DNA of 55,917 bases from a virus (lineage: Duplodnaviria > Caudoviricetes), in the IMG/VR virus record IMGVR_UViG_3300037424_001329, positions 1 through 55,917 of that record, one strand, 5' to 3'. Made by a program: the position numbers and the translations under genes. The notes under the pieces were generated by a model that ran no database searches, had not been told where the DNA came from, and was given only the letters and a program-made list of their open reading frames with translations. Within the stretch, counting starts at the first letter, position 1, and each line of letters begins with the position of its first letter. Shown piece after piece: positions 7,040 to 30,749 of the stretch.

Positions 7040-7082
7040 GGGGTCTCCTGTCTGCCGGGGCTTCCGCCCCGGCGTATACTGG

Positions 7083-7238
7083 TTATCGCGGGTACGGCGG
7101 CTTTTTGTTGTAAGCGTCGTCCTCGCGGATTTTCTGCCGCGCCCGCTCGCGTTTGCGAAATTCCTCCTCCTGCCTCCGGTGGGCCTCGCGCTCCTTGTCG
7201 CGCTGGGCCTGCTTACGCTGCTCGTCGTCGTTTCCCAT
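7083..7238 (-). CDS. small highly charged protein (51 aa; not in the ORF track)
   Basis: MGNDDEQRKQAQRDKEREAHRRQEEEFRKRERARQKIREDDAYNKKPPYPR with GGAGG RBS; followed by a GCCGGGGC-GGAA-GCCCCGGC hairpin. Confidence 0.55.
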   Translation of the reverse strand: MGNDDEQRKQAQRDKEREAHRRQEEEFRKRERARQKIREDDAYNKKPPYPR

Positions 7239-12094: not shown

Positions 12095-12547
12095 ATGGCA
12101 TCCGTCAACAAAGTGACCATTCTCGGCCATCTTGGCGCCGATCCTGACATCCGCACTACCTCGGCCGGCAAGTCCATCGCGAACATGCGCATCGCCACGT
12201 CCGAAACCTGGAAGGACAAGGCGACCGGGGAACGCAGGGAAAAAACTGAGTGGCACACCATTGTGATTTTCAACGAGGCTCTGGCCGGGGTCGCACAGCG
12301 CTACCTGAAGAAGGGATCGAAGGTCTATATCGAGGGCCAGTTGCAGACTCGCAAGTGGCAAGACAAGGACGGACAGGACCGATACAGCACAGAAGTTGTG
12401 CTCCAAGGGTTTAACGGCCAGCTCGTTATGCTCGATGGCAAGCAGGAGGGCCAAGAGTCCGCCGCACCGCGCCAGCAGCAGAGCGCGCCGAAGAAGGACG
12501 ACGGCTACCAATACGACAAGAACCTCGACGACGAGATTCCATTCTGA
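12095..12547 (+). CDS. ssb: single-stranded DNA-binding protein
   Basis: '[14 protein letters not shown]', 'TEWH', '[18 protein letters not shown]' and acidic tail DDEIPF. Confidence 0.97.
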
Positions 12548-12661
12548 CACCGGCAACCGTTGATTGCGCCCGTAGTCGATGGCTTCCTCAGATTTGCTGG
12601 GTTCGGGAAATTTCCCGTGAAACATTGTCTTTGCTGACGCTCTCCGCAACGAGAGAGTGAG

Positions 12662-12692
12662 AAAAGGGCTGAGCACGGTTAAATGCTCAGCC
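12662..12692 (-). terminator. intrinsic terminator closing the leftward array
   Basis: GGCTGAGCA-N8-TGCTCAGCC followed by CTTTT on the minus strand, 25 nt after the last array gene. Confidence 0.6.
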
Positions 12693-12716
12693 AAAATCAG
12701 TTAGTTGCGATAAAAG

Positions 12717-13124
12717 TTAACGAGTGTTAACCTTTTCAAGGAGGCGAGCGATTTCGTTCTCGTCGTCGAACTCATCGGCGCCATACTCTGACCCAATAGA
12801 ACCAGCCGTCGTCCAGTCTCCAGCCGCTGACGAGTCGGCCCTCTCTAGGAGAGTTTCGCGGGTATCTCCTGGCCGTATTTCGAGCGAGATGTCGGCGTAT
12901 TCCCGCACCAAACATTCACGGTAGACGCAGACCTCTGCCGTGATCTGGTTTTTGTCCTCGGCGCCGGTGCTCAGCTCGCCGCATATGGCCTTGGCCTTCG
13001 TGATGATGGCGGCCATGGTCACAGCCGCTAGGCTTTCGAATGCACTGACCGGCATCGGCATGTCAGCGATTTTTCGCACCAGATTGCAAGCCTCATCGGC
13101 TTGTATAGCTTTGATATCGGTCAT
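12717..13124 (-). CDS. hypothetical protein (array)
   Basis: ATG at 13124 after AAAGGGGAG. Confidence 0.65.
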   Translation of the reverse strand: MTDIKAIQADEACNLVRKIADMPMPVSAFESLAAVTMAAIITKAKAICGELSTGAEDKNQITAEVCVYRECLVREYADISLEIRPGDTRETLLERADSSAAGDWTTAGSIGSEYGADEFDDENEIARLLEKVNTR

Positions 13125-13190
13125 TTTTCTCCCTTTCAGGGCGTAGCGCCCAATGTGGCGCACCAGTCTCCTGGCGCGCCCCGTGAGGCG

Positions 13191-13676
13191 TTAGGCGTCG
13201 ACCAGCTCCAGCTCATGTTGGAGCGCGGTGACCATCAGGCGGTAGGTGTCGACCGCCGTCTCGAAGTCGCCGCTTTCGATTTCTGAAACGGCCTGCTTGA
13301 TATCCGGCCAGTGGGCTTCGGCGACGTGGAGCTGGCTCTTTTCCTCCAGCGCACCCACGGCATCGACGATCCTGGGGCCGACCGTAGCGTATTCCACCAG
13401 CAGCTCAGGATGACTCTTCGCCAGGACCATATCCCGGAACCAGCGCAGGGTGCGCAGCTCGGGGCAGTCGTCGCCCTTGCCGAGAATATCGACGAAAAGC
13501 GTGGTGACGAAGCACTTCTTCTTTTTTGGAGGAGGCGGCGCGGGCGGGTTGTTCGGGTCGTAGCCGGATTCGTCCACGTAGTCCCCCACGCCAAAATATT
13601 CATCCGTCCCTTGAGGGTTGGCCTCGCGGCGCTTTTTCATGGCTTTCTCCAGCCATGTTTTACGGCGTTCACCCAT
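13191..13676 (-). CDS. CFI-box-CTERM-like domain protein
   Basis: 'CFVTT...GKGDDCPELRTLRWFRD..L....LLVEYATVGPRIV'; AAGGAG RBS. Confidence 0.7.
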   Translation of the reverse strand: MGERRKTWLEKAMKKRREANPQGTDEYFGVGDYVDESGYDPNNPPAPPPPKKKKCFVTTLFVDILGKGDDCPELRTLRWFRDMVLAKSHPELLVEYATVGPRIVDAVGALEEKSQLHVAEAHWPDIKQAVSEIESGDFETAVDTYRLMVTALQHELELVDA

Positions 13677-13751
13677 ATCATTCTCCTTGTGTTGCTATCG
13701 GGCATAGCGCCCGGTACTGGCGCGCCGCGATGGACGCGCCAGGACGAGGCG

Positions 13752-13886
13752 TTAATAGACCTTCCGCCGGCCGAGCCAGCGGCGCATGTCAGCGGAGATG
13801 GCGCGGTAGCCGATGATGATGGCAACCGCGCTGGCGGCGAGGTGGACAACGAGGAGGAACACCGTCTCAAGATCGTCACAGATCAT
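13752..13886 (-). CDS. small membrane protein (array)
   Basis: One hydrophobic helix; ATGA-coupled. Confidence 0.5.
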   Translation of the reverse strand: MICDDLETVFLLVVHLAASAVAIIIGYRAISADMRRWLGRRKVY

Positions 13887-14140
13887 GGCTTTTCCTTCCC
13901 GACCACGACCTTGCGGCCGTGCAGTGGCGTCCATTTGTAAATGAGGATCGACCCATCCTGGTATCTGCCTTCAGCGTGCACCAGGCGGCCTTCGTCGTCG
14001 CGCTTGGGTTCCCTGACGGGGGTCCACTGGGCGAACTCCACCTTTTGCCCGGATTTCTTCACGGCATACCCGCCGGTAAGCGTGTATGTCGATACGTCCT
14101 GGCTAGTGACGATCATCCTCACGTCCTGCGCAATACTCAT
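13883..14140 (-). CDS. hypothetical protein (array)
   Basis: ATG at 14140 after AAAGGGAG. Confidence 0.65.
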   Translation of the reverse strand: MSIAQDVRMIVTSQDVSTYTLTGGYAVKKSGQKVEFAQWTPVREPKRDDEGRLVHAEGRYQDGSILIYKWTPLHGRKVVVGKEKP

Positions 14141-14214
14141 GACTCGCTCCCTTTTTGTAGCTCCGGCTTTCACCGTTACCCGTCACCGCGAACGGTGATG
14201 GGGCCGAGGGAAAG

Positions 14215-14571
14215 TCAGCTATTGCACCACGATTTGACCGTGTAGTTCGAGGCAGAATCTATCTGCTTGCGGGTTCGCGGGTCTTTGAGAATGACGGTGC
14301 AGAAGTCGTTTTCGCCCGGCTCGTCGGCCCGCAACTCCGCGCTCCACGAGCCAATCGCGGCTGCGAAGACGCCAAGGACTTCATTCCTTGAGAAGCCTTC
14401 AGACGCGGCCAAATGTGCCACGTCCGTCAGCAGGTCGGTGATGTCCGCCAGGGGAAAGGACGGGTCTTCATCCCCCACTCCCACGGCCTTGAGAAAGGCC
14501 GACATGGCTTCTTTCGCCCAGGCGGCGCGCACGGCATTATTGACCGGCGCGAGCATATCTTCGGTGGTCAT
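14215..14571 (-). CDS. hypothetical protein (array)
   Basis: AAAGGGAG RBS; 'NAVRAAWA...ITDLLTDVAHLA' recurs in mobile-element proteins. Confidence 0.7.
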   Translation of the reverse strand: MTTEDMLAPVNNAVRAAWAKEAMSAFLKAVGVGDEDPSFPLADITDLLTDVAHLAASEGFSRNEVLGVFAAAIGSWSAELRADEPGENDFCTVILKDPRTRKQIDSASNYTVKSWCNS

Positions 14572-14646
14572 ATTTGCACTCCCTTTTCCGTTGCCGGCTT
14601 TCGCCGTTCCTGCTGCCCCGCGAGGAAGCGGCAGGCCGAGGGAAAG

Positions 14647-15045
14647 TCAGAGATTGCGTTTCTCGAACGCCTCCAGCGCCTGGAGGATGTAGTCGGCGAA
14701 ATAGGCGTCAGTTTCCCCGGCGGCTGGCGTCGTCGCCACCACGGTATCGCCGCGCGCGCCGTGCAGCACGATGCAGATGCGCTTGCCGCCGCTGGCCTTC
14801 TCGGGGCGTAGAGCCCACTTTGAATGCGGTACAGTTCCTGGCGCCCTCCTGTAGGCCCTGGATCTCAAATAGGTCCGTTTGACCGGCTCTTTCCCTTCGG
14901 CGAGCGTCCAGCCGACATTCCATTCCGCCGCCTGCTTGCAGGTGACCGGGTAAGGGCACATGTCCTTGGCCTTGCCTGCCGCGAACGCATCCCAGCCCTC
15001 TTCCTCGTAGATTGTCCTCGTAGGATGCAACATCCCGTACTTCAT
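14647..15045 (-). CDS. protein with N-terminal Rmf-like motif
   Basis: 'YEEEGWDAFAAGKAKDMCPY.....AEWNVGW' fits the ribosome modulation factor-like G-x-x-A...CPY...W-x-x-GW pattern. Confidence 0.6.
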   Translation of the reverse strand: MKYGMLHPTRTIYEEEGWDAFAAGKAKDMCPYPVTCKQAAEWNVGWTLAEGKEPVKRTYLRSRAYRRAPGTVPHSKWALRPEKASGGKRICIVLHGARGDTVVATTPAAGETDAYFADYILQALEAFEKRNL

Positions 15046-15147
15046 CTGGGCTCCCTTTCTGGGCAAAAAGCCGCATGTGCCCGTCCTCACGCTGGCGTGT
15101 GAATTCCAGCGTGAAAAGAGACGCACGTCTCGCGTTTTAGGAATGTT

Positions 15148-15306
15148 TCACAGATCGAGTGCTTCCCCCATGAAAAGGGGTGTCAGCCAGAATGTTATCG
15201 TCCCGGCGCCCATCTGCCAGTCCGTCCCTGCAAAGAGGGCCATGACCAGAAACGATGGCGCCGATAGGACTATCAGAGCCAGAAGACCGTGGAAAAAATT
15301 CTTCAT
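15148..15306 (-). CDS. small membrane protein (array)
   Basis: Hydrophobic 52 aa; ATGA-coupled. Confidence 0.5.
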   Translation of the reverse strand: MKNFFHGLLALIVLSAPSFLVMALFAGTDWQMGAGTITFWLTPLFMGEALDL

Positions 15307-15521
15307 TTCCGCCACCCCTTTGGTTCGCGTGTGGATATCCACCCTGCGACGCAGAAGATGATCGCCAAGTCCCGAAGATCCGGCATAACGCCGAGCATCA
15401 GCATCACGACGATCATGCAGGCCGAGATAAAGGCCGCCTCGGCGCAGCACCCAAGGACGTATCTCGCCCAGAACAGGGCGGAGGCCGCCCATTCACCTCG
15501 CTTCTCCTTCAATGTTCGCAT
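15303..15521 (-). CDS. small membrane protein (array)
   Basis: GGAGG RBS; two hydrophobic segments. Confidence 0.55.
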   Translation of the reverse strand: MRTLKEKRGEWAASALFWARYVLGCCAEAAFISACMIVVMLMLGVMPDLRDLAIIFCVAGWISTREPKGWRK

Positions 15522-15576
15522 GATTCCTCCCTCTGATTGCGTAGCTGGCGACCGCGATGGATCGCCAGCGGCTCAG

Positions 15577-15705
15577 TCAGCGGTGCGCCCGGCTTGGGCG
15601 GTGTTTCCGGTCGTGGTGTCGAGGGTGCCAGGCCCACGAGGCCCAGGAGAATAGGCCGATCATCAAGCCGATGACCGCGCCGCCCGTCAGCAGCTCATTC
15701 AGCAT
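15577..15705 (-). CDS. small membrane peptide (42 aa; not in the ORF track)
   Basis: MLNELLTGGAVIGLMIGLFSWASWAWHPRHHDRKHRPSRAHR; overlaps the upstream gene and ends at a hairpin. Confidence 0.45.
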   Translation of the reverse strand: MLNELLTGGAVIGLMIGLFSWASWAWHPRHHDRKHRPSRAHR

Positions 15706-15964
15706 GGGCCACTTCCTTCGCCCGGTCCTCCAGGCGTTCGATCCTCTTTCGAATGAGCCGAAGGTCTCCCTCGATCAAACCCACATCCCCCCGGATACTG
15801 GAGATGTCGGCCTTGATTTGCGCGATGTCAGTTTTGATTTGCCCCTGGGCAACAGCCAAGGCGGCGACCGCCACATTCGTTTCGCGCTGCCCGGCCTTAA
15901 GTTCGGAGATGTCCGCCTGGATCAGGCGCAATATCTCCACTGTGATATCCACCGGCTCAGTCAT
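15695..15964 (-). CDS. coiled-coil protein (array)
   Basis: Heptad repeats 'EILRLIQADISELK...RIERLE'; GGAGG RBS. Confidence 0.65.
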   Translation of the reverse strand: MTEPVDITVEILRLIQADISELKAGQRETNVAVAALAVAQGQIKTDIAQIKADISSIRGDVGLIEGDLRLIRKRIERLEDRAKEVAHAE

Positions 15965-16225
15965 AAGCCAGCCTCCGCGCTACGGCGGCCCGGTAAGCGC
16001 CGAGCCTCCGCCACCGGCGTATTGCTTCGATCAACGCACGCATGATGTTCTCCTTTGCTGCCTGCGTTCCTGGTCACCCCGGAGGATGGCCAGGCCGCCA
16101 ATCAGCAGCCCGAGGATCTTAGCGTTTCCTTGATTCAGTTTCATCAGAATCCAGCCTCCCTATTGCGTTTTCGCACGCTATGTGCGGTCAAAGCCAGCCG
16201 CAGTTTCCCGCAACTGGCCTTGGCC

Positions 16226-16706
16226 TCATTTAGCGCCTTGTTGGGCCTCAACTTGCCAGCGGTTCAGCTCCTCGACATCGGTCTCGACCTTATTGAGGCG
16301 GGTTGCGATGTTGCCCCGCCTCTCGAAGAGGCCGTTGTTGTGCGGCCGTGCGCCGCAGTCCTCGTTCAAAGTCTCTTCGAGAGCAGATAGGCGCCGCTCA
16401 TTCGCAGCGACTTGGTCAGAAATAGCCGTGGAATGAGCCACCCAACCCTTGAACAGGTTGTCGTGGCTATCCCTGAGCAACCCCTCCTCGCGAAGGCGCT
16501 GACCCGTTTCGAGCGTGAGCATCTCCGCCAGTTCATCGACGCGCCTTGTCAGCGCATCCAAGCCAGATACTACGACCGTAGTGCCGAAGTTCAGGCGTTC
16601 GGCGAGCGCGTCGATCTCCGCATTACTGAGGGCGGCATGGACATCGCCATTCGCCGCAGAGTTCGTCGAATGTGCGGGCGACAATGTCGTTGTCTAGGTC
16701 AAGCAT
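16226..16706 (-). pseudogene. coiled-coil protein gene with an apparent +1 frameshift near 16660
   Basis: AGGAG + ATG at 16706 reads MLDLDNDIVARTFDEL and stops after 27 aa; the long frame (16226..16684) lacks an RBS. Confidence 0.4.
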
Positions 16707-16765
16707 TGTGTTCTCCTGTGTGTGCTGGCGCTTCGCCTTGCCCCCAGACTGGCTAGGGGAAAGCC

Positions 16766-17011
16766 TCAATCCTCTGCATCCAGACTTAGGTGATAGTCCA
16801 TATAGCGGTCTGGATTGCTGTATGCAGGTCGGCTGTCACGGTGAGCTATCGGCAGTTCCAGGATTTCTCCGACGCTTTCCTTGGGCGCGGCGATGCGGAA
16901 AAGGCCGCAGAAAGCTATAAGGCTACCATCCGTCGCGCGGTCGGTACTGGTGATTTTCAGGACTGATCCAGCATCTCCGATCATGTGCCCGTTCTCGTAT
17001 GTATACGCCAT
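16766..17011 (-). CDS. hypothetical protein (array)
   Basis: AAAGGGAG RBS. Confidence 0.65.
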   Translation of the reverse strand: MAYTYENGHMIGDAGSVLKITSTDRATDGSLIAFCGLFRIAAPKESVGEILELPIAHRDSRPAYSNPDRYMDYHLSLDAED

Positions 17012-17077
17012 ATCGGTTCTCCCTTTTGTTGCCGTCCATCGCTGCCGCCCGCTGGGAGCGGCAGGAATTGACGTCAG

Positions 17078-17320
17078 TCAGGCGCCGAATTTCTCAGGAT
17101 CGAAATCGAAATAGTCAACGCCGCTGGCGTCGATAGCGGTTTCCCATGCCGTAGCGGCCGCCAATTTTATTTCATGCGCCTTCGCTCGCAACGCGGTGAA
17201 CGTCTCTCCGTACTGGCCAGCGTTCGAAAACTCCGTCCACGCCACCGCGTCGATTGTGGCGGCCCGTTTCATTTCGAGGCGGTATCTAGCTGCGGCCTCT
17301 GCAATTTTATGGTTGGTCAT
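17078..17320 (-). CDS. hypothetical protein (array)
   Basis: AAGGAG RBS. Confidence 0.65.
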   Translation of the reverse strand: MTNHKIAEAAARYRLEMKRAATIDAVAWTEFSNAGQYGETFTALRAKAHEIKLAAATAWETAIDASGVDYFDFDPEKFGA

Positions 17321-17448
17321 TTTCGTTCTCCCTTGATTACCGTTTCGGCCTTTTGGCCATCATCAGGCATGGCGCCTGATACTGCCCCGCCTAAACGGGG
17401 CAGCGTGAGACGTCACTCCGGCGCGCTTGATAATGGGCTTGCCGGTAG

Positions 17449-17694
17449 TCAATTGCTGCCCTCTCCCCTGCCGGGGATCTTCTCTCCACGGAAAATCACG
17501 AATCCGGATGGATCGACATAGACACGCCCATCCTCGCAAAGATCCCCATTCACGGTCACGGTCCGCGCGCCGCTAATGTGAACGCCATGCGCGACCAGCC
17601 ATGAGTGTATGGCTGTGGCCACCTCTTCGCCGGTCAGCGTAATGTTGACCCCCGGCCCATACTCCGTGCAGCCTTTGCCGTATTCGACGTCCAT
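17449..17694 (-). CDS. hypothetical protein (array)
   Basis: AAAGGGAG RBS; 'LTGEEVATAI...ARTVTVNG...VYVDPSGFV'. Confidence 0.7.
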   Translation of the reverse strand: MDVEYGKGCTEYGPGVNITLTGEEVATAIHSWLVAHGVHISGARTVTVNGDLCEDGRVYVDPSGFVIFRGEKIPGRGEGSN

Positions 17695-17972
17695 TGCGGC
17701 TCTCCCTTTTTGAGATACGCACCTCGGCTCGGTTCCGCGAGCGCGTTTAACCGGCGTGCCGCCGGGGCCATTTGTCTCGCCAGAGTTATCGCCCGGTTAT
17801 TGCCGAGCGAACATGTCACAGGTTACGATCCTGCTCCCTTCGCAACTGCCCTCGGCCAGCGAGGCGGTATCTATCCGCCCTTTGAGAAGCGTCTGTGGCG
17901 CTTAACAAAAGGCGGTCGGCAGCATGCGAGAAAACCGGCCAGCGCGGGGCCGCCCGGCTTCCTGACGTGCTG

Positions 17973-18398
17973 CTAAATGGTTACGTGCCGTAACCGCACT
18001 TGATTGGCGTACCGGCGTTGTAACGTCCCCCGCGCTTCCCTGATGGCGCTTCTCACCATGTCGGGGAAGTAGTGGCCGACCACAGCATGGTCGCCGTGCT
18101 CTTGCCTGAAGGCCGTTGAATTGCGGTGCAGCGGATCAGGATCGCGGTGCGCTGTCCAGAAATCCGCGTAGTCGCTTTTGCTGTAGACCGATCCGCCAAG
18201 AAATTCCTTGGTGACCTCCTCGCCATCCAGCTCCACCACGACCATGGATTCGAAGGCGACAAGCTCGCCTGAGTCCAGGCCGCGTTGCGTCTCTCCGTCT
18301 CCGTCTTCGCCGTCGTATTTGTAGTGGCGGCACCGCTCGATTTCCAGCCGGACGGCAAAGCGCGCCGTCTGGAAGTCCCATACAGTTCCAACTCTCAT
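17973..18398 (-). CDS. conserved phage hypothetical protein (array)
   Basis: AGGGAG RBS; 'FLGGSVY...YFPDMVRSAIREAR'. Confidence 0.7.
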   Translation of the reverse strand: MRVGTVWDFQTARFAVRLEIERCRHYKYDGEDGDGETQRGLDSGELVAFESMVVVELDGEEVTKEFLGGSVYSKSDYADFWTAHRDPDPLHRNSTAFRQEHGDHAVVGHYFPDMVRSAIREARGTLQRRYANQVRLRHVTI

Positions 18399-18474
18399 CA
18401 AAGTCGCTCCCTATTTTTGAAGCGTCTGGCGCTTCGAACTTCCGCCAGCACGAGGCCAGCGGAAGGCCGAAAGG

Positions 18475-18681
18475 TCAGTCAGCGAACCGAATCATGGTGA
18501 TGAACTCTCCGGCCTCATCACGGATCGCGATTTGGTCGAAGTTTTCCTTCACCAGCTCCACGGCTGGCGCGTCGTGCCCGTCAAGCCGTCCGGCGTGGAT
18601 CAGCTTGTGCGCGGCGATCCCACATGTGAATGCGGACAGACCGAATTGCGCGGTACGCTCAACATGATCTTGAATTTTCAC
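18475..18681 (-). CDS. hypothetical protein (array)
   Basis: AAGGGAG upstream; bounded by hairpins on both sides. Confidence 0.55.
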   Translation of the reverse strand: MKIQDHVERTAQFGLSAFTCGIAAHKLIHAGRLDGHDAPAVELVKENFDQIAIRDEAGEFITMIRFAD

Positions 18682-18757
18682 AACATTTCTCCCTTATCTC
18701 CGTGCTCCACCTGAACACGTTCCAGTTATCCGAAATTGCCGGATAACTGGCCGATGG

Positions 18758-19174
18758 TCAGTGGCTGATGAACAGATATTCCTGCTCACCAGCAACGGCC
18801 CGCGCGATGGCGACAAGTGCGGCCTCCACAGCGCTGTTGCCAACGCCGTCGATGTAAACGCGCTTTTCAGCGTCAGCCAGCACGATTCCGGCGCTGGTTA
18901 TCGCCATGCCGATGGCCGCGCTCACCTTGTGGTAACCGCCGCCCCCTGCGCTGCCCGTGCCGGACAAGTGCACCTCATTGCCGTGCACCCATACAGTTGC
19001 GTAGATGACGGAGGCGGTTTTTGCCCGCCCCATCCAGCACCGCGCCGTGACGATCTCGTGCAGTTTTCCGTTGACGTTGCCGACAACGGAAAACACGTCC
19101 GTCATTTCCTTGTCGCCGCCGTGGTTTTTCCCGTTAGAGATGGAACCACTCGGCAGATTCGCGATTATGTTCAT
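18758..19174 (-). CDS. conserved phage hypothetical protein (array)
   Basis: AAAGGGAG RBS; 'SGTGSAGGGGYHKVSAAI'. Confidence 0.7.
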   Translation of the reverse strand: MNIIANLPSGSISNGKNHGGDKEMTDVFSVVGNVNGKLHEIVTARCWMGRAKTASVIYATVWVHGNEVHLSGTGSAGGGGYHKVSAAIGMAITSAGIVLADAEKRVYIDGVGNSAVEAALVAIARAVAGEQEYLFISH

Positions 19175-19240
19175 GGTGAAACTCCCTTTCGCGTGAACAC
19201 ATTGAAGCCCGCCGCACTGCCGCAACGGGCTTCCCTCTGT

Positions 19241-19666
19241 TCACTTGTAAACGGCGATGCCGCGCGTGTAGAACTCGCTGGCCTTCCGCCCCTCCGGTAT
19301 GTCGCCCTTGCGGATGATATACAGCGAGGCGCCGCGCGGGTCGGTTTGGTGGAACCACACCCAATCGGGATGTTCCGCCATCACTTTTGCAATGGCGCGG
19401 ATTGCGTGCCGCTCGCGGTCAGCGATAGGCTCACGGAAACTCTCGCCTCGGTGCGGATGCACTTCGCGAAACGGCGCTCTCGTCTCGTCGTCGCGCACGA
19501 TGCACCACGACTTGGAAGCGTCCGACATTCCGCAGCACTGTTCATCCCAGCCGTGCAGCGTCATCGCATGCTTGCGCAGCGCAACGGCGTCCGCCTCGCG
19601 GAAGCCTGCCGCCATGAGATGCGCGATGCACTCGCCGCGCGGCGATTTGTATTGTCTCTTTTCCAT
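19241..19666 (-). CDS. conserved phage hypothetical protein (array)
   Basis: AAAGGGAG RBS; 'HQTDPRGASLY'. Confidence 0.7.
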   Translation of the reverse strand: MEKRQYKSPRGECIAHLMAAGFREADAVALRKHAMTLHGWDEQCCGMSDASKSWCIVRDDETRAPFREVHPHRGESFREPIADRERHAIRAIAKVMAEHPDWVWFHQTDPRGASLYIIRKGDIPEGRKASEFYTRGIAVYK

Positions 19667-19728
19667 ATTCGACTCCCTTTTGCACACAGCGTGCAGTATG
19701 ACCGCCCCAACAAAGGAGCGGTCACCCT

Positions 19729-20016
19729 TCAAGCTGCGGTAAACGTGACCGGCGGAAGCTCCGGCACTTCGCCGAGCGTCGCCGTCACCACGGTATGCTG
19801 CAATTTCGGTTCCGGCATTTCGACGATTTGGGCGATGACGCGGTGCGCCACGCTGTCCAAGCTGCCGATATTGTCGTTGTAGAGTTCAATCGCGCTGTCC
19901 CTCGCGTCAGAGATGGCGGAATCCAGGTCGCCGTCATCGCCAACTTGGCGCGCGGCAGACTCGATTCCGTCTTCAGCCACAACGGTCACGGTCACGATTT
20001 TCCACATACCAGTCAT
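19729..20016 (-). CDS. acidic hypothetical protein (array)
   Basis: AAAGGGAG RBS; Asp/Glu-rich. Confidence 0.65.
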   Translation of the reverse strand: MTGMWKIVTVTVVAEDGIESAARQVGDDGDLDSAISDARDSAIELYNDNIGSLDSVAHRVIAQIVEMPEPKLQHTVVTATLGEVPELPPVTFTAA

Positions 20017-20098
20017 ATGCTTGCACTCCCTTTTCAGTTCCGCACACAGCGTGCGTGAAAGCCGCCGGATCGCGCCAGCGGCTTCCCTTCATGCTGCG

Positions 20099-20743
20099 TC
20101 AAATGATGCCGCCCAGTTCGTCGAATTCGTATCCGTTCGCACGGATGGATTCATCGACGTTTTCTTTACTCATTCGATAGTCATTCTCGCCACGACACTG
20201 GTCATATATCCAGCTTGCGAAGCCGTTCAAGGCGTCCTCAATGGCAGAGGAATCCCCTTCGCTGGCATCATTCCCCGTGTCTGAGCGGGTGACAACCACG
20301 CCGATGTATCCATCATGACGGCCGGCCGTCACCTTCGCCTCAAGCCTGTAGAAAGCCCGGCGTTGAGCCTCCGCAAGGTCTTTGGCGATCTGGTGCAGTT
20401 TGGTATCCTTCGGACATTCAGCCGTTACGGCCTTCACAGCGCCTTTCTGGTAGCTATACCAGGCATCGAAGCTGGCACCGTCGCTCTGGCAATAGCCAAG
20501 ACTCCAGTAAATGACCGGCTTTTCCCGCGTGCCGCCACCCATGAGCTTTACGGGTTTTGTCTCAATCACAATCCCCATGAGCTTGCCCATGCGCACCGCG
20601 TCGTCAATGACGCATTCGAAGTCGTCAGGGCTACCGTGGCGGTTTTCCATATCGCGCCACCAGTCGCGGGCTTTTTCCTTCGCGCGATCTTCCAACTCGT
20701 CAAAGCTGTAGATTTTGCGCTTGATTGTTTCAGTTCTCGGCAT
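20099..20743 (-). CDS. mobile-element protein of the family often annotated 'antitoxin of toxin-antitoxin stability system'
   Basis: 'IYSFDELEDRAKEKARDWWR', 'IYWSLGYCQSDGASF', 'FASWIYDQCRGENDY...VDESIRANGYEF'; function unverified. Confidence 0.65.
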   Translation of the reverse strand: MPRTETIKRKIYSFDELEDRAKEKARDWWRDMENRHGSPDDFECVIDDAVRMGKLMGIVIETKPVKLMGGGTREKPVIYWSLGYCQSDGASFDAWYSYQKGAVKAVTAECPKDTKLHQIAKDLAEAQRRAFYRLEAKVTAGRHDGYIGVVVTRSDTGNDASEGDSSAIEDALNGFASWIYDQCRGENDYRMSKENVDESIRANGYEFDELGGII

Positions 20744-20818
20744 TGAAATTGCTCCCTTTCGTGGTGAATTGGCCACGTTGAAGCTATCCAGCGCCGTGGC
20801 CGGATAACTTCCCGATGG

Positions 20819-21256
20819 TCAATGCTGCCGGACGTGCCGCCAGTCTGCCGGAACGTCATAAGACGTCACGGAACCGTCGAGCGTATCGAGGATTCCAGCA
20901 TTCGGAACGCATGGGGATGCGAGCCGCGCCTTGTCCGTCGTCACTGGAGACTTGAAGATGAAGAAATTCAGCGCTCCGCCAAGCCATGACGAGGCGTAGG
21001 TGACTCCATCAAGATCGCCGGTAATGAACGGCTCGTAATCTTCGTATTCGTCCCAGAAACCCTGTTCGTCGCGTTCGTCCGGCTCGCGGCCTTCGCGGTC
21101 CACGAATTCCTCTTTCCAGTCCGTGAACGCCGCATTTGCAGTCTCGTTCACAGCCTGCGGGCCGAACAAGAGCGTGCTTTCAAGCTCGCCATCCAGCGCC
21201 TTGCCAGAGATGTAGCCGTAAGCGATTCCTGTCGTCGGATTTATGTTGGCAACCAT
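20819..21256 (-). CDS. conserved acidic phage protein (array)
   Basis: AAAGGGAG RBS; 'TGIAYGYIS', 'WLGGA', 'SPCVPNAG'. Confidence 0.7.
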   Translation of the reverse strand: MVANINPTTGIAYGYISGKALDGELESTLLFGPQAVNETANAAFTDWKEEFVDREGREPDERDEQGFWDEYEDYEPFITGDLDGVTYASSWLGGALNFFIFKSPVTTDKARLASPCVPNAGILDTLDGSVTSYDVPADWRHVRQH

Positions 21257-21434
21257 GTGATTTTTCTCCCTTTTTTCATGCCAAAACGCTGATTTTCCTT
21301 GCATTTTAGTGAGAATCAGCATACAAATTAGCATGTTGAAAACGGCCTCGAAAGACCGCTTCCCCGATGCTAATTTCTAAGACAACAGCGTGCGTTGCTG
21401 CCGCCCATTCCGAAGCGGCAACCCTTCACGTTGC

Positions 21435-21758
21435 TCAAAGGCCAGCTTCGGCAGCCCAACGCGCCAGCTCGGCGAGCTTCTTTTCTGCCGCTTTCCATTT
21501 GCGCCCAAGCTCCGGCGACGACGCGCCATCCTGCAAGCCCGCCTTGATCAGCGCCGCTTTATCCGCGCATGCCGCTTTGAGTGCCGTAACAACGGCGAGC
21601 AAATCGCCCGCATCAAGCCACGCTTCGACCTGCGCGCCTATGGTCCCGCGCTTGAAATCCCCGCTTTCGCCTGGATTCCACTCCTTCCCGCATCCGCTGC
21701 AAGACAGATATCCGCCGGACACTTCGTCACCTCCGCAACGCGGACATTTTTCGCTCAT
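21435..21758 (-). CDS. zinc-ribbon protein (array)
   Basis: CPRC...CSGC..W; AAAGGGAG RBS. Confidence 0.65.
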   Translation of the reverse strand: MSEKCPRCGGDEVSGGYLSCSGCGKEWNPGESGDFKRGTIGAQVEAWLDAGDLLAVVTALKAACADKAALIKAGLQDGASSPELGRKWKAAEKKLAELARWAAEAGL

Positions 21759-21831
21759 TTCTCTCCCTTTCGCATCCAATGGTGGACACATCGCAACGGC
21801 GCGCAGCTTCCCGCACGCCGTTGCACTCTGT

Positions 21832-22230
21832 TCACGATCCGACGTAGTAATAGACCTTGCCGTCATCGCCTTGATAGATGCATCCGCTATATCTCCCGGC
21901 CTCCACCCCTTCCTCATACTCCGCCCAATCTGGGCAGGACGTATCAAGGCCAGCCCCGCGAATGTCGCCACTGATGAGCTGAATCAGCAAGGCGTTGCAT
22001 TCAGCCTCCGTCCAAGCGGCGATTTCGCCTTCGTCCCATGCGCCGAAGTCGCGCATGTAAAGCCGGAACTCGGCGAATTGCTCTGGCGTTTTCAGCAAGC
22101 GCGTGCTCTTGGCTTCTTCCAAAGACGCTTGCCACGTGATGCGGCCGGCATCCTTCCCAAGCTCTGCCACGCTGGCGGAAAAGTCAGCGTGATTGCAGCT
22201 TTCGAAGAACTCCGTTATGTCCAATTCCAT
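21832..22230 (-). CDS. strongly acidic protein (array)
   Basis: AAAGGGAG RBS; D/E- and aromatic-rich. Confidence 0.7.
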   Translation of the reverse strand: MELDITEFFESCNHADFSASVAELGKDAGRITWQASLEEAKSTRLLKTPEQFAEFRLYMRDFGAWDEGEIAAWTEAECNALLIQLISGDIRGAGLDTSCPDWAEYEEGVEAGRYSGCIYQGDDGKVYYYVGS

Positions 22231-22298
22231 TGCGTTCACTCCCTTTTTGGTGGACACATGAAAGCCGCCAGCGCTAACCGGCGGTTTCCCTCTATCCA

Positions 22299-22460
22299 TC
22301 AAGAGGCGTCATCGACATTGAGACGCAACGCGAAGCTCTCCGCGCCGGCCTCGCTATCCCGCGCCGGAACAATCCAGCCGCCGGATTCCGTATCCAGCAC
22401 GCCCCAGCGGATCAACCCAATGTCCGCGTCGAAGAATTCGCCAGCCTCAAACCTGAGCAT
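22299..22460 (-). CDS. small acidic protein (53 aa; not in the ORF track)
   Basis: MLRFEAGEFFDADIGLIRWGVLDTESGGWIV...; GAGG RBS; stop abuts a hairpin. Confidence 0.55.
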   Translation of the reverse strand: MLRFEAGEFFDADIGLIRWGVLDTESGGWIVPARDSEAGAESFALRLNVDDAS

Positions 22461-22671
22461 GGAACACCTCGCAAATCATCTGCCAAGCGATGCCGCTTTG
22501 CGTGAACACCTCGGCTTTATCAGTCGCCTGCGTCATGCTCGCGCCTGGATAGGCAACGCCGCGCGACTTGCACAGCATGGTTCCCGGCTTGCGCCAGCCG
22601 TCTTGACTCAAGCCGTCGAACGTCTCAGTCAAAACCGGCTCAACAAGCCAGCTATTGCGACATTTTGTCAT
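22447..22671 (-). CDS. hypothetical protein (array)
   Basis: AAAGGGAG RBS. Confidence 0.55.
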   Translation of the reverse strand: MTKCRNSWLVEPVLTETFDGLSQDGWRKPGTMLCKSRGVAYPGASMTQATDKAEVFTQSGIAWQMICEVFHAQV

Positions 22672-22746
22672 GACTTCCACTCCCTTTTGCACTCACAAAT
22701 GAGCACGTTGCATGCGCCAGCACCAAAGCCAGCGCATGCCCCTTAC

Positions 22747-23106
22747 TCATTTCCCGGCCGGACCGCACACAGTTACGCCGCGCGCTCTCAGCTTCGCCGT
22801 TCTGACATCAACGTGAGCCAGATCGAACGTCTCAGAATGGGCAAAGCGGATGCGATGCAAAGCCGTCCAGCTTCGCCGCGCCATAAGCCAGTCAAGAAGC
22901 ACGCGCCAGTCACCCCAATAGGTGAGGCAATGGCCTTGATGCCGCTCAGGATCGAAGTAAAACGTGACCGCGTATTGCTCGCGATGTTCAACGGACAAAT
23001 CCACGCGGATAACTTCCACGGGATACCGCCTCGCATAGCGCAACACGACGGCGAGGTCACCGCCGCGAGCCAGCACCGTTCCGTTCAAGGCAACAACATT
23101 TGGCAT
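22747..23106 (-). CDS. hypothetical protein (array)
   Basis: AAAGGGAG RBS; ATG at 23106. Confidence 0.65.
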   Translation of the reverse strand: MPNVVALNGTVLARGGDLAVVLRYARRYPVEVIRVDLSVEHREQYAVTFYFDPERHQGHCLTYWGDWRVLLDWLMARRSWTALHRIRFAHSETFDLAHVDVRTAKLRARGVTVCGPAGK

Positions 23107-23178
23107 ATCGACTCCCTTTTTGCGTTCGAGAATGAACACATTGCGAAGCACCACAACGCGCGGTGCCTCGCCCTTTGC

Positions 23179-23367
23179 TCACCCCTCGCGGCATTCCGCG
23201 TCGAATTCCACAAGCCGTATCATCGCCGTCTTGGCCTCAACGGGTATTTCAACACGCCCCGCCAAAAGCCGAACAATCCTGAAAGCCGCTTCCTCAATCG
23301 TCAGCATTCCGTCAATCGCTTGCTGAACCAGTTCGCCATAAATGTGGCTGGTATCATTGAATTGCAT
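23179..23367 (-). CDS. hypothetical protein (array)
   Basis: AAAGGGAG RBS. Confidence 0.6.
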   Translation of the reverse strand: MQFNDTSHIYGELVQQAIDGMLTIEEAAFRIVRLLAGRVEIPVEAKTAMIRLVEFDAECREG

Positions 23368-23459
23368 GCAGTTATCTCCCTTTTCGCATCCAAATCACCT
23401 GGATACATCAAGGCCCTGCCGTCGCGAGCAACAGGGCCTCACTCTATCCAGTCCCACAA

Positions 23460-23846
23460 TCAGGCCGGCATCTTCACAACGCCGTGCCCCTTCGCGCCCT
23501 TCGTATACAGCTTCCGCCGCGCCAGCACGCTCAACAGAGCGCCGATGGAACGGCCGGAAACACCAGCGCATTCAATCGAGGCAACCAAAACGTTGCCTTC
23601 CGCGTCAGCAATCCGCCGCAGTTCCGCCAGCATCGAAGATGCCTTCTCGCTCAGTTCAGCAACCGGCTTCGGCTTCTTTTCAGCCTTCGGCTTCGCAACC
23701 TTCACGGCCTTAGCCTTCGGAGCCTTGGCAACCTTCGCCTTCGGCAGCTTGAAGTGCTTCCGGCGCCCGGCAATGCCAGGCACGCGCACTAGCGACACGT
23801 CAGAGGCCAATTCCACGTAACCAGCATTCATGGTTTCATAGGTCAT
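23460..23846 (-). CDS. basic protein with K/A/P repeat and possible winged-helix C-terminus (first gene of the array)
   Basis: 'PKAKVAKAPKAKAVKVAKPKAEKKPKP'; AAAGGGAG RBS. Confidence 0.65.
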   Translation of the reverse strand: MTYETMNAGYVELASDVSLVRVPGIAGRRKHFKLPKAKVAKAPKAKAVKVAKPKAEKKPKPVAELSEKASSMLAELRRIADAEGNVLVASIECAGVSGRSIGALLSVLARRKLYTKGAKGHGVVKMPA

Positions 23847-24119
23847 AATAGCAAACTCCCTTTGGTTTCAACACGGTAGCGTTATGCTGCCGCCTAATCA
23901 TATGAATTTGAGTTTGTTCATACGATTGGGGGGGAGCATTTTGAGGTATCCCCGTGCCACATGAAGCGAAAATGTCTATATGCTCCAGTGGTTTAGGGAG
24001 TTAAGCGCCAAGCCTCGGTTTCCGCGAGGTCCAAAACGTAGCCGGTCAATCCAGCGTGGCTTGGCTATGTCGTTGATGCCTTTAATGTTTTGCCTATGAG
24101 GCTGCATCACCGTGACTAC

Positions 24120-30486: not shown

Positions 30487-30749
30487 CGCACGCACAAAAA
30501 CGGGCACTGAAGTGGTTGCAAAACCGGAATGGGGGCGGATACTTCGGCAAGGACAACGTCTTCGTCGCTGGCGGGGATCGGGCACCCGTGATGCGCGCGA
30601 CGTGGAACTCGCTATCAAAACTATTCCTTGTGGAATTTTACCATGGGAAACGTCGCATGAGGCTGACGGAAGCGGGCCGCACCTTCGATACGGCCGGCGT
30701 CCAAGAGAGCGAAGGCCAAGAGGCCGAGGATGAAAGCTGGTGGCCGTGA
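30483..30749 (+). CDS. small winged-helix-like protein
   Basis: 'MTHAQKRALKWL...TWNSL...LV...RLTEAG'. Confidence 0.55.
   Translation: MTHAQKRALKWLQNRNGGGYFGKDNVFVAGGDRAPVMRATWNSLSKLFLVEFYHGKRRMRLTEAGRTFDTAGVQESEGQEAEDESWWP

What the first reader, a model, noticed from the sequence alone, without database searches (positions are those of the whole stretch)
12717..23863. Array of ~30 small genes punctuated by a hairpin family with an invariant internal loop
Seen in the sequence: reading the minus strand, most genes end with the stop codon inside or next to a ~50-nt hairpin, then a strong AAAGGGAG-type RBS and the next ATG. Thirteen hairpins share one design: a 6-11 bp outer stem, a 4x4 internal loop, an 8-11 bp inner stem and a variable cap. 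Stem sequences differ but still pair. The loop is conserved: 5' strand UCGG/GAGG/AAGG/GAGU/AGGG (3rd base always G), 3' strand AACG/AAUG/GAUG/CAUG/CACG/AACA (2nd base always A). Examples: GUGAACA-GAGG-GAAGCCCG..CGGGCUUC-AAUG-UGUUCAC (19193-19244) and CUGGAUA-GAGU-GAGGCCCUG..CAGGGCCUU-GAUG-UAUCCAG (23399-23451). Inner-stem G-U wobbles and UUCG/GNRA caps (14163, 21325, and looser relatives near 13150 and 16190) read in transcript sense, although some stems have A-C mismatches. None has a U tract, so they are not terminators. Established: T7 early mRNA is cut by RNase III at intergenic hairpins with internal loops, and integron attC sites have a similar stem/unpaired spacer/stem layout overlapping the stop codon. 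Inference: this is either an RNA-processing, antitermination or protein-binding element repeated per gene, or a single-strand recombination site that makes the genes exchangeable cassettes. No IntI-type integrase is in the window and the attC AAC/GTT core is not conserved.
Basis: partly seen in the sequence, partly recalled or inferred. Interest (0 to 1): 0.85.

Follow-up and report, generated by a model that had tools for sequence, protein, structure and literature searches.

The report
Repeated hairpins between phage early genes
A phage operon of small genes carries the same two-storey RNA hairpin after almost every stop codon, most likely marking where the long messenger RNA is cut or protected, much as in phage T7, though this has not been tested.

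Summary
On the minus strand, 17920-23451, 13 hairpins share one design: a 7-bp outer stem, a 4x4 internal loop, a 10-14-bp inner stem and a variable cap. Looser relatives continue to 13144. A scan that ignored loop sequence found 15 such structures in 5.6 kb, against 0.9 +/- 0.9 in shuffles. Three loop positions are near-invariant. Each hairpin starts at or near the upstream stop codon and ends 18-31 nt before the next start. Wobble pairs (29 G-U vs 7 A-C) and folding energy (13 of 13) show that the sense strand folds, so the element most likely acts as mRNA.

There is no U tract, no promoter room, no tyrosine recombinase and no attC core. There is no Rfam match, and the covariance model found no copy elsewhere. 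T7's intergenic hairpins, folded here, have the same architecture with different sequence. Two unrelated uncultured phages carry their own versions at the same kind of junction.

Best reading (about 0.45): intercistronic processing and stabilising sites of the T7 RNase III type. No RNA data exist, so cleavage is inferred. This is a new variant of a known kind, of moderate interest.

The parts
12717..23846 (-). Operon-like array of about 28 small same-strand genes with AAAGGGAG-type ribosome-binding sites. Genes either overlap or abut, or are separated by a 55-92-nt gap holding a hairpin and a ribosome-binding site.
23399..23451 (-). Two-tier hairpin H1, loops GAGU / GAUG
   Evidence: 39.6 bits; z -4.8
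23132..23182 (-). Two-tier hairpin H2, loops AAGG / AAUG; UGA in the outer stem
   Evidence: 45.3 bits; z -7.1
22699..22750 (-). Two-tier hairpin H3, loops AGGG / AACG; UGA in the outer stem
   Evidence: 48.6 bits; z -7.0
22250..22299 (-). Two-tier hairpin H4, loops GAGG / CAUG; one A-C mismatch in the inner stem. Added by eye, because the strict scan missed it.
   Evidence: 41.9 bits; z -4.4
21782..21835 (-). Two-tier hairpin H5, loops GAGU / GAUG; UGA in the outer stem
   Evidence: 42.4 bits; z -5.7
21386..21433 (-). Two-tier hairpin H6, loops AAGG / AACG
   Evidence: 45.1 bits; z -2.8
21327..21374 (-). Two-tier hairpin H7, loops UCGG / AACA, UUCG cap. It follows H6, not a gene, and lies in a 178-nt gap.
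   Evidence: 40.4 bits; z -6.7
20769..20822 (-). Two-tier hairpin H8, loops UCGG / AACG; UGA in the outer stem
   Evidence: 44.3 bits; z -4.9
20047..20096 (-). Two-tier hairpin H9, loops AAGG / CACG
   Evidence: 45.1 bits; z -5.0
19687..19736 (-). Two-tier hairpin H10, loops AAGG / ACUG; stop codon runs into the loop
   Evidence: 44.3 bits; z -5.7
19193..19244 (-). Two-tier hairpin H11, loops GAGG / AAUG; all 15 core pairs are Watson-Crick
   Evidence: 54.6 bits; z -6.2
18711..18761 (-). Two-tier hairpin H12, loops UCGG / AACG; UGA in the outer stem
   Evidence: 48.4 bits; z -5.3
17920..17972 (-). Two-tier hairpin H14, loops UCAG / CUCG (the most deviant copy). It follows a UAG stop and precedes a 278-nt gap with no ORF.
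   Evidence: 38.1 bits; z -3.7
18426..18478 (-). Looser post-stop hairpin (H13) with small mismatches in place of the 4x4 loop
   Evidence: I15; z -2.6
14598..14646 (-). Looser relative with UCGG / AACG loops and one mismatch in each stem. Its flanks repeat at 14163-14225.
   Evidence: 14.7 bits, E 0.22; D7, D9, D20
14163..14222 (-). Looser relative with UCGG / AACG loops and a UUCG cap. Same flanks as the 14598-14646 copy, different inner stem.
13144..13193 (-). Looser relative, loops CGGG / CACA, GAGA cap
   Evidence: 13.0 bits; z -3.5
15533..15580 (-). Post-stop two-tier hairpin with other loops (AGCC / UACG). Its cap is identical to the cap at 13705-13754.
   Evidence: (23.9 bits)
13705..13754 (-). 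Post-stop two-tier hairpin with other loops (CGUC / UACC)
   Evidence: 17.5 bits; z -2.6
12667..12692 (-). Canonical intrinsic terminator (10-bp stem followed by a U run) after the last gene. It shows what a terminator looks like in this genome.
   Evidence: z -5.3

Best explanation
The hairpins are intercistronic elements of the messenger RNA. Host RNA polymerase most likely transcribes the array as one or a few long transcripts that end at the U-tract terminator at 12692-12667. At each junction that is not an overlap, the RNA folds into a helix about two turns long: 7 bp, then a purine-rich 4x4 loop, then 10-14 bp.

By analogy with the early region of phage T7, the host's double-strand-specific RNase III would bind this helix. 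The internal loop would limit cutting to one strand. The upstream cistron would keep the inner stem-loop as a 3' cap against exonucleases. The downstream cistron would start a few bases before its ribosome-binding site. This would uncouple the stabilities and expression levels of about 14-20 small early genes.

Shown here: the structures, their enrichment, the conserved loop positions, their placement between stop codon and ribosome-binding site, folding of the sense strand, the absence of terminator, promoter and recombinase features, and the shared architecture with T7.

Inferred: that RNase III, or any nuclease, cuts here, and where it cuts.
For: 1. Enrichment and fold. 15 clusters in 5.6 kb against 0.875 +/- 0.93 in 200 shuffles. 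All 13 copies fold as drawn, z -2.8 to -7.1. RNAalifold gives the same consensus.
2. Sense-strand folding. G-U 29 vs A-C 7 (p 0.0003), and 14 vs 0 in stem extensions scored by a strand-symmetric rule. The sense fold is more stable in 13 of 13 copies, -28.9 vs -20.9 kcal/mol on average.
3. Position. The stop codon lies within -10 to +6 of the hairpin start in 12 of 12 cases, and the next start lies 18-31 nt after the hairpin in 10 of 13.
4. Size. Outer stem 7 + loop 4 + inner stem 8-14 bp (10-14 in 12 of 13) gives 19-25 positions (21-25 in 12 of 13), about two helical turns. Passages of PMC1540722 give about two turns as the length of reactive RNase III substrates. They also say that internal loops can limit cleavage to a single phosphodiester, leaving 3' hairpins that protect against 3'-5' exonucleases. 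Passages of PMC3867540 say the same about loops and 3' hairpins.
5. T7 comparison. Eight T7 intergenic regions were folded. A relaxed scan gave 13 clusters on T7's + strand, and four of them (857-897, 1432-1475, 13858-13899, 36821-36863) show the layout: 5-bp lower stem, 4-nt 5' loop, 9-10-bp upper stem, 5-nt 3' loop. As here, the conserved letters lie around the loop (ACUC, then AAGG...CCUU, then UAUGA) and the top of the stem varies. That these four are RNase III sites R0.3, R0.5, R4.7 and R18.5 is my recollection; the two T7 records shown do not annotate them.
6. Not terminators. None of the 13 has a U tract after the hairpin, whereas the operon's end has a clear one.
7. Tied to the resident phage, not to the gene. 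Two unrelated phages, L082 and L056, carry homologues of the window genes 21256-20819 and 20743-20099. In L082 the two are adjacent with a two-tier hairpin between them. In L056 a 66-codon ORF also lies between them, downstream of that hairpin. In each phage the hairpin is of that phage's own type.
Against: - There are no RNA ends, no expression data and no host. The only sequencing run holding this DNA is its probable source DNA sample.
- At sequence level the elements are not T7 sites. Model R1 scores at most 11.3 bits anywhere in T7, and the loops differ (NNGG / AAYG here, ACUC / UAUGA in T7).
- Conserved loop letters are more than RNase III is known to need. In the analogous family of L082/L056 the apical UGCG loop is invariant in 16 of 16 copies. 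That points to a sequence-specific reader.
- The stop codon lies inside the outer stem in half of the copies, so terminating ribosomes must melt the hairpin. This would fit a translational role equally well.
- No relative of this phage was found, so there is no orthologous covariation for this family.
Confidence: 0.45

Rival explanations
1. The hairpins bind a dedicated sequence-specific RNA-binding protein, from phage or host, other than RNase III. The protein reads the internal loop and controls translation, reinitiation after the stop codon, antitermination or decay at each junction.
For: Three loop positions and the first inner base pair are near-invariant while the stems vary. In the analogous L082/L056 family the UGCG apical loop is invariant in 16 of 16 copies. 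Hairpins between homologous genes are of the resident phage's type. The stop codon sits in the outer stem in 6 of 12 copies. In 7 of 13 copies the 5' loop reads AGGG, like the array's AAAGGGAG ribosome-binding site (read).
Against: No candidate reader was found. The array and flank proteins tested have no Pfam domain except Lar (30 proteins). PHROGs gave only unknown-function families for 3 of the 10 array proteins tested. The window shares only three small early genes and a serine-recombinase-like stretch with G004 or G005. T7's RNase III sites also show conserved loop letters, so conservation alone does not require a special reader.
Confidence: 0.25
2. The hairpins are passive mRNA stabilisers or insulators. 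They block 3'-5' exonucleases, or separate the folding of neighbouring cistrons, without being cut themselves. Chromosomal intercistronic palindromes work this way.
For: The structures are very stable, -22 to -35 kcal/mol. They sit right after stop codons. They are present at every gap of 55 nt or more in the first half of the array.
Against: A passive barrier needs neither a conserved internal loop nor a constant two-tier geometry, yet both are kept while the stem sequences change.
Confidence: 0.12
3. The hairpins are DNA-level recombination joints. They are attC-like single-strand sites or PeSL-like homology patches that let the small genes be exchanged as cassettes.
For: The layout of stem, unpaired spacer, stem and variable top at the end of each gene resembles attC (my recollection). 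The same three accessory genes occur in unrelated phages in a different order, with hairpins at the junctions. L082 and L056 differ by blocks of genes bounded by hairpins. Passages of PMC2839356 show that repeated intergenic elements mediate such shuffling in T4-type phages.
Against: No tyrosine recombinase is present (PF00589: 0 hits; the control search hit in 14 of 14 genomes). Only a serine recombinase lies 11 kb away. AAC and GTT are both present in 1 of 13 copies. The folding strand is the coding strand, with 14 G-U and 0 A-C in unbiased stem extensions. The hairpins do not travel with the genes: 2 of 78 loci with a homologue of gene 20743-20099 have such a hairpin after it, and those are of another type. 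There is no promoter part as in PeSLs, and shared sequence between copies is under about 20 nt. Because almost every junction has a hairpin, breakpoints falling at hairpins would be expected anyway.
Confidence: 0.08
4. The hairpins are partial transcription terminators or attenuators. They grade expression along the operon, possibly read through by an antiterminator.
For: They are strong GC-rich hairpins in intergenic positions. The stem-loops of PeSLs act as terminators (PMC2839356 abstract).
Against: None of the 13 has a U tract after the whole hairpin, while the true operon end has one. There is no promoter and no room for one (18-31 nt) before the next gene, so termination would silence everything downstream.
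Confidence: 0.05

Closest known systems
RNase III processing sites of phage T7 (the early sites R0.3 to R1.3 and the later ones)
   Same: Both are repeated hairpins between cistrons of a polycistronic early transcript, placed just after stop codons. Both have a two-tier build: lower stem, internal loop of about 4x4 or 4x5, upper stem of 9-14 bp, about two helical turns in total. In both, the conserved letters lie around the loop and at the first upper base pairs, and the top varies. The 3' loop strand holds AUG in T7 (UAUGA) and in 5 of 13 copies here. Neither has a U tract.
   Different: There is no sequence relationship: R1 scores at most 11.3 bits in T7, and the loops are NNGG / AAYG here against ACUC / UAUGA. 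The lower stem is longer and better paired here (7 bp). The loop is symmetric and purine-rich, with G opposite A twice next to the inner stem. The phage is not T7-like in the sense that no PF00940 RNA polymerase was found, but that search hit nowhere in its controls, and the portal is only about 30% identical to podovirus portals. Cleavage is unproven here.
Two-tier post-stop hairpins of the uncultured phages G004 (L082) and G005 (L056), found here
   Same: They follow stop codons of small same-strand early genes and precede a ribosome-binding site. They have an outer stem with many G-U pairs in the sense strand, a 4x4 loop and an 8-10-bp inner stem. They cluster in the early region: 9 of 15 plus-strand clusters of the complete, terminally redundant G005 lie in its first 10.1 kb. 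Homologues of three of the window's array genes lie among them.
   Different: Different letters are conserved: loops ACAG / CRAU, UAAC / AUUG and GGAU / UUCG, and an invariant UGCG apical loop in 16 of 16. R1 does not detect them. The phages share no portal with the window. Their function is equally unknown.
Integron attC sites
   Same: Both show stem, unpaired spacer, stem and variable top, one per gene, overlapping or next to the stop codon, with genes all in one orientation.
   Different: There is no IntI-type recombinase and no conserved R''/R' core. The strand that folds here is the coding strand. Every gene has a strong ribosome-binding site.
PeSL cassettes of T4-type phages (PMC2839356)
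   Same: Both are repeated intergenic elements with a stem-loop that flank small orphan early genes in a plastic region. Both may coincide with gene shuffling.
   Different: PeSLs are about 100-bp composites of a sigma-70 promoter and a terminator stem-loop (abstract and passages read). Here there is no promoter, no terminator tail and only short shared sequence.

Membership tests
T7-type RNase III processing site | Intercistronic position in a polycistronic phage transcript | tested here: met
   12 of 12 hairpins that follow a gene start within -10 to +6 of the stop codon, and 10 of 13 end 18-31 nt before the next start. The only clear terminator lies at the operon end.
T7-type RNase III processing site | Hairpin of about two helical turns interrupted by an internal loop | tested here: met
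   7 bp + 4x4 loop + 8-14 bp (10-14 bp in 12 of 13) in the 13 copies. The same layout is seen in T7 itself. The length and loop rule comes from passages of PMC1540722 and PMC3867540.
T7-type RNase III processing site | Sequence likeness to the T7 sites (common descent) | tested here: not met
   R1 gives no hit better than 11.3 bits (E 1.3) in T7, and the loop letters differ. Rfam has no model that matches T7's own sites, so the lack of an Rfam hit for the window says nothing on this point.
T7-type RNase III processing site | Cleavage by RNase III at the internal loop | not testable with these tools
   No RNA run holds the sequence. The contig encodes no RNase III of its own (PF14622: 0 hits), and the host is unknown.
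Integron attC site | IntI-type tyrosine recombinase nearby | tested here: not met
   PF00589 gave 0 hits in six frames of the 55.9-kb contig, while the control search hit in 14 of 14 genomes. The contig is estimated 81% complete, so a gene beyond its ends cannot be excluded.
Integron attC site | Conserved inverse core sites (AAC / GTT) in the outer stem | tested here: not met
   Both are present in 1 of 13 copies (19193-19244), read. The core consensus itself is recalled, not taken from a call.
Integron attC site | Folding of the bottom strand (antisense to the cassette genes) | tested here: not met
   The sense strand folds better in 13 of 13 copies, with G-U 29 vs A-C 7. That attC uses the bottom strand is recalled.
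PeSL (promoter-early stem-loop) | Sigma-70 promoter joined to the stem-loop | tested here: not met
   No promoter-like site lies between any hairpin and the next gene: 6 sites were found in 12.2 kb against 4.3 expected, none at a junction. The gap is only 18-31 nt.
Intrinsic terminator | U tract directly after the stem | tested here: not met
   0 of 13 copies have one after the outer stem (sequences). There are two marginal T-rich flags inside hairpins and one true terminator at 12692-12667.
Host REP-type repeat | Many copies in the host chromosome | tested here: inconclusive
   R1 gave 0 hits in 4 and in 121 genomes of the class of a Rhodobacter capsulatus genome and 0 in 80 genome loci. Only 49-150 of up to thousands of first-look candidates were scored per genome, and the true host is unknown.
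Any Rfam family | Match to a curated covariance model | tested here: not met
   0 matches at gathering score over the whole window, and 0 at E up to 5 in 12500-24100.

The most novel reading that the evidence does not exclude
Two-tier post-stop hairpins are a general punctuation system of phage accessory-gene arrays that arose or diversified independently in unrelated phages. In this reading each lineage's conserved loop letters are read by a dedicated factor, not simply by host RNase III, and the same elements double as joints at which small anti-host genes are swapped between phages.
Probability: 0.2. Interest if true: 0.75.

Novelty: new variant of a known kind. Interest (0 to 1): 0.5.

Why it matters
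If these hairpins are processing sites, the T7 strategy is not a peculiarity of T7-like coliphages. T7 cuts a long early transcript into separately stabilised messages at conserved internal-loop hairpins. Here the same design recurs, with lineage-specific sequence, in uncultured phages that probably infect other bacterial groups.

A covariance model plus a simple stop-hairpin-RBS rule could then mark early, anti-host gene arrays in metagenomic phage contigs. The hairpins would also be compact, portable insulator parts for operon design in non-model hosts.

If a dedicated reader or cassette exchange is involved, the finding would bear on how phages shuffle their orphan early genes.

Tried and rejected
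Searches for relatives of this phage found none usable:
- megablast of the region against 50,697 phage records gave no match.
- Two array proteins and the portal, scanned against IMG/VR, gave no close relative. One contig had a 25%-identical portal.
- A degenerate pattern built from two copies gave 2 IMG/VR hits. Both lack the inner stem and score 18.4 and 10.5 bits, so they are chance matches.
- The best homologue of gene 20743-20099 among 5.8 billion proteins is 53% identical.
As a result, covariation at orthologous positions and mosaic breakpoints could not be tested for this family.

R1 found nothing elsewhere. In 80 viral loci (1.1 Mb) there was one hit, at E 0.65. There was none in 80 genome loci (1.0 Mb) and none in 4 + 121 genomes.

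No RNA holder is listed for the region; the one run listed is the probable source DNA.

A free-energy cut-off of -18 kcal/mol for junctions does not discriminate, because shuffles of such GC-rich sequence fold about as well. I do not use its '25 of 25'. Two gene rows in that script (16705-16631 and 16043-15958) were wrongly defined.

A strand-symmetric scan that counted A-C as a pair picked up many weak clusters (34) and blurred the count (G-U 90 vs A-C 58). I replaced it with the per-hairpin count.

Read-through or selenocysteine insertion at the UGA codons was considered. The spacing to the next start is in frame in one case that I checked by hand and out of frame in three others, so I dropped it.

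The T7 records shown do not list RNase III sites. PMC4283147 has no mention of RNase III.

No cultured relative of L082 was found. Alignment A3 mixes inner stems of 8 and 10 bp, so I did not build a second model. IntegronFinder, CMfinder and R-scape are not on hand and were not run. Supplements of the papers were not seen.

Literature: five full-text searches listed no paper on this hairpin family. This is no proof that none exists.

Full report
WHAT THE WINDOW IS. The window is a whole IMG/VR virus record of 55,917 bp, estimated 81% complete. It carries a terminase, a podovirus-type portal (about 30% identical to pelagiphage and Ralstonia phage portals), a large tail protein and a serine recombinase. 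From about 23,850 down to 12,717 the minus strand carries about 28 small genes with GGGAG-type ribosome-binding sites. Only 3 of the first 10 match any PHROG family, all of unknown function, and none matches Pfam. The array ends at a textbook intrinsic terminator with a U run at 12692-12667.

Thirteen copies align with gaps only in the cap (A1). One of them, at 22250-22299, was added by eye because it has an A-C mismatch. All 13 fold to the drawn shape as minimum-free-energy structure, with z from -2.8 to -7.1. RNAalifold predicts the same 7-bp / 4x4 / 10-bp consensus. The high pairing and 'covariation' on A1 (95.4% of 195 cells paired, 0 of 500 shuffles as high) is partly circular, because the copies were picked for pairing.

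The features that were not selected for are these:
(a) Loop letters. 5' strand position 3 is G in 12 of 13. 5' position 4 is G in 11 and U in 2. 3' strand position 2 is A in 11 of 13. 3' position 4 is G in 12 of 13. The first inner base is G in 12 of 13.
(b) Placement. The stop codon starts at hairpin position -10 to +6 in 12 of 12 cases, and at position 2 in 6 of them. The next start codon lies 18-31 nt after the hairpin in 10 of 13 cases, with the ribosome-binding site in between.
(c) Strand asymmetry, described below.

The internal loop is better described as two G-opposite-A positions next to the inner stem, then a position that is often an A-U or G-C pair, then a purine-G or U-G opposition.

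The covariance model R1 built on A1 recovers the 13 copies at 38-55 bits. It finds only weak relatives further down the same strand: 15533-15580 at 23.9 bits, 16058-16105 at 22.9, 13705-13754 at 17.5, 14598-14646 at 14.7 and 13144-13193 at 13.0. It finds nothing convincing in the other 44 kb. In the second half of the array, 7 of 11 junction regions folded have z of -2.5 or lower, with varied mismatch patterns. Two of them, at 14163-14222 and 14598-14646, keep the UCGG / AACG loops and share their flanks.

WHICH MOLECULE FOLDS? At the 15 core pairs the 13 copies have 171 Watson-Crick, 15 G-U, 7 A-C and 2 other oppositions. I then extended the inner stems under a rule that treats G-U and A-C alike. 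The added pairs are 28 Watson-Crick, 14 G-U and 0 A-C. Together that is 29 G-U against 7 A-C, p = 0.0003. The sense strand folds more stably than its complement in 13 of 13 copies, on average -28.9 against -20.9 kcal/mol. A double-strand cruciform, or a structure on the template strand, is therefore unlikely. The coding-sense single strand folds, which in practice means the mRNA. UUCG and GNRA-type caps on some copies point the same way.

WHAT IT IS NOT.
- Not a terminator. No copy has a U tract after the hairpin, while the operon end has one.
- Not a promoter cassette. No promoter-like site lies at any junction, and there is only 18-31 nt of room.
- Not an attC site. PF00589 is absent from all six frames (control hit in 14 of 14 genomes). 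AAC and GTT occur together in 1 of 13 copies, and the folding strand is the coding one.
- Not a known RNA family. Rfam gave 0 hits at gathering score and 0 at E up to 5. Rfam also finds nothing in T7, so it holds no model that detects T7's RNase III sites.
- Not an evident host repeat. R1 gave 0 hits in 125 genomes of one proteobacterial class and in 1.0 Mb of genome loci, with shallow scoring.
- The contig encodes no RNase III. No T7-type RNA polymerase was found, but that search also missed in all its controls.

COMPARISON WITH T7. I folded eight T7 intergenic regions and ran a relaxed two-tier scan on the genome. The scan gave 13 clusters on the + strand. Four of them (857-897, 1432-1475, 13858-13899, 36821-36863) have a 5-bp lower stem, a 4-nt 5' loop (ACUC or CCUC), a 9-10-bp upper stem starting AAGG, a short cap, a 5-nt 3' loop (UAUGA, CAUGA or UAUGG) and the lower stem again. 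By my recollection these are the RNase III sites R0.3, R0.5, R4.7 and R18.5; the records shown do not annotate them.

The design is the same as in the window: position after the stop codon, two tiers, about two turns, conservation around the loop and at the first upper pairs, and a variable top. Passages of PMC1540722 and PMC3867540 state that internal loops or mismatches at the target site limit RNase III to one strand, and that the resulting 3' hairpin protects the product. The letters are unrelated, and R1 finds nothing in T7. The window's family therefore works like T7's sites in its anatomy but is not a member by descent.

RELATED SEQUENCES ELSEWHERE. No relative of this phage was found. 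Gene 20743-20099 belongs to a family that is common in Alphaproteobacteria and in many phages; one source labels a member an antitoxin. This hints at an alphaproteobacterial host.

In 78 viral loci that carry a homologue, I inspected by eye the 85 nt after its stop codon. Only 2 loci (L082 and L056) show a two-tier hairpin there, and it is of a different sequence type. Those two contigs are G004 (52.7 kb) and G005 (67.9 kb, complete, with terminal repeats). They are related to each other (orthologues 39-75% identical) but not to the window: they have no portal match, and only three small early genes and a recombinase-like stretch are shared.

G004 and G005 carry their own array. I aligned sixteen of their hairpins. 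All lie on the sense strand after stop codons and before ribosome-binding sites. Their outer stems are rich in G-U pairs, they have 4x4 loops in three subtypes, and the UGCG apical loop is invariant in 16 of 16. In G005, 9 of 15 plus-strand clusters lie in the first 10.1 kb. After one orthologous gene pair, the two hairpins keep loops and outer stem while 5 of 8 inner pairs changed on both sides. Copying from a paralogous hairpin could also explain this.

Two conclusions follow. First, hairpin-punctuated arrays of small early genes recur in unrelated phages. Second, the hairpin type belongs to the resident phage, not to the gene. Homologues of the window genes 21256-20819 and 20743-20099 lie close together in all three phages with a resident-type hairpin between them. 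In L056 a 66-codon ORF also lies between them.

MECHANISM AND ODDS. Best reading, about 0.45: these are sites at which the host's RNase III, or an enzyme used like it, cuts one strand of the internal loop. The cut leaves the inner stem-loop as a 3' cap on the upstream message and frees the downstream one.

The main rival, about 0.25, is a dedicated sequence-specific reader with a translational or regulatory role. It is favoured by the conserved loop letters, by the invariant apical loop in the second family, by stop codons lying inside the outer stem, and by AGGG (as in the ribosome-binding site) in 7 of 13 5' loops. The other rivals are passive stabilisers (0.12), recombination joints (0.08) and attenuators (0.05). 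That the element acts at the RNA level in the sense strand I hold at about 0.85.

NOVELTY AND INTEREST. The sequence family is new: it has no Rfam match, and no copy was found outside this contig in what I searched. Five full-text searches listed no description of it. The design is the classical T7 one, so I rate it a new variant of a known kind. Its recurrence with lineage-specific letters in unrelated uncultured phages adds some interest. The lack of any RNA evidence limits it. Interest 0.5.

Noticed in passing
L082:3900-10100 (+) and L056:1500-10100 (+): Two related uncultured phages, unrelated to the window, carry their own family of post-stop two-tier hairpins. There are three loop subtypes, and the UGCG apical loop is invariant in 16 of 16 aligned copies. 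The hairpins are concentrated in the early region.
   Followed up: partly
L050:4700-7700 (+): A third contig shows 11 two-tier clusters in 8.8 kb, some with similar outer stems (for example at 4717-4761 and 7071-7116). This may be another such family. Part of the signal comes from a tandem repeat near 6520-6670.
   Followed up: no
window 14163-14225 and 14594-14657 (-): Two junction elements share nearly identical flanks of 15-24 nt but have different inner stem-loops. It looks as if the inner hairpin had been swapped inside a constant frame.
   Followed up: partly
window 13705-13754 and 15533-15580 (-): Two post-stop hairpins with different stems share an identical 10-nt cap.
   Followed up: no
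window 17695-17972 (-): A 278-nt gap without an ORF follows the last strong copy. Its first 110 nt, which include that last hairpin, fold at -59 kcal/mol, with a second long hairpin right behind it. This may be a transcript boundary, a promoter region or a small RNA. The well-formed hairpin family stops here.
   Followed up: no
window 23884-23939: A 23-nt-arm inverted repeat (83% complementary) lies just upstream of the first gene of the array, in the divergent region between the minus-strand and plus-strand gene blocks. It may be an operator.
   Followed up: no
window 17920-23451 (-), 5' loop strands: In 7 of 13 copies the 5' loop plus the first inner base reads AGGG, as in the array's AAAGGGAG ribosome-binding sites. 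The hairpins may therefore present a Shine-Dalgarno-like stretch right after the stop codon.
   Followed up: no
window 20099-21256 (-); L082:4036-5336; L056:2675-4124: Homologues of two array genes lie close together, in the same order, in three phages that are otherwise unrelated or only distantly related. They are adjacent in the window and L082, and separated by a 66-codon ORF in L056. The 214-aa protein's family is common in Alphaproteobacteria, and one source labels a member 'antitoxin of toxin-antitoxin stability system'.
   Followed up: partly
window 16226-16705 (-): An ATG with a ribosome-binding site at 16705 runs into a stop after a few codons, while the long ORF (152 aa) starts at a TTG at 16684 in another frame. 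This may be a frameshift, a sequencing error or a miscalled start.
   Followed up: no
window 30740-31207 (+) and 6218-7039 (-): There is a Lar-like restriction-alleviation domain (Pfam, 30.1 bits) and a serine recombinase/invertase-type gene. No tyrosine integrase was found in the contig.
   Followed up: no
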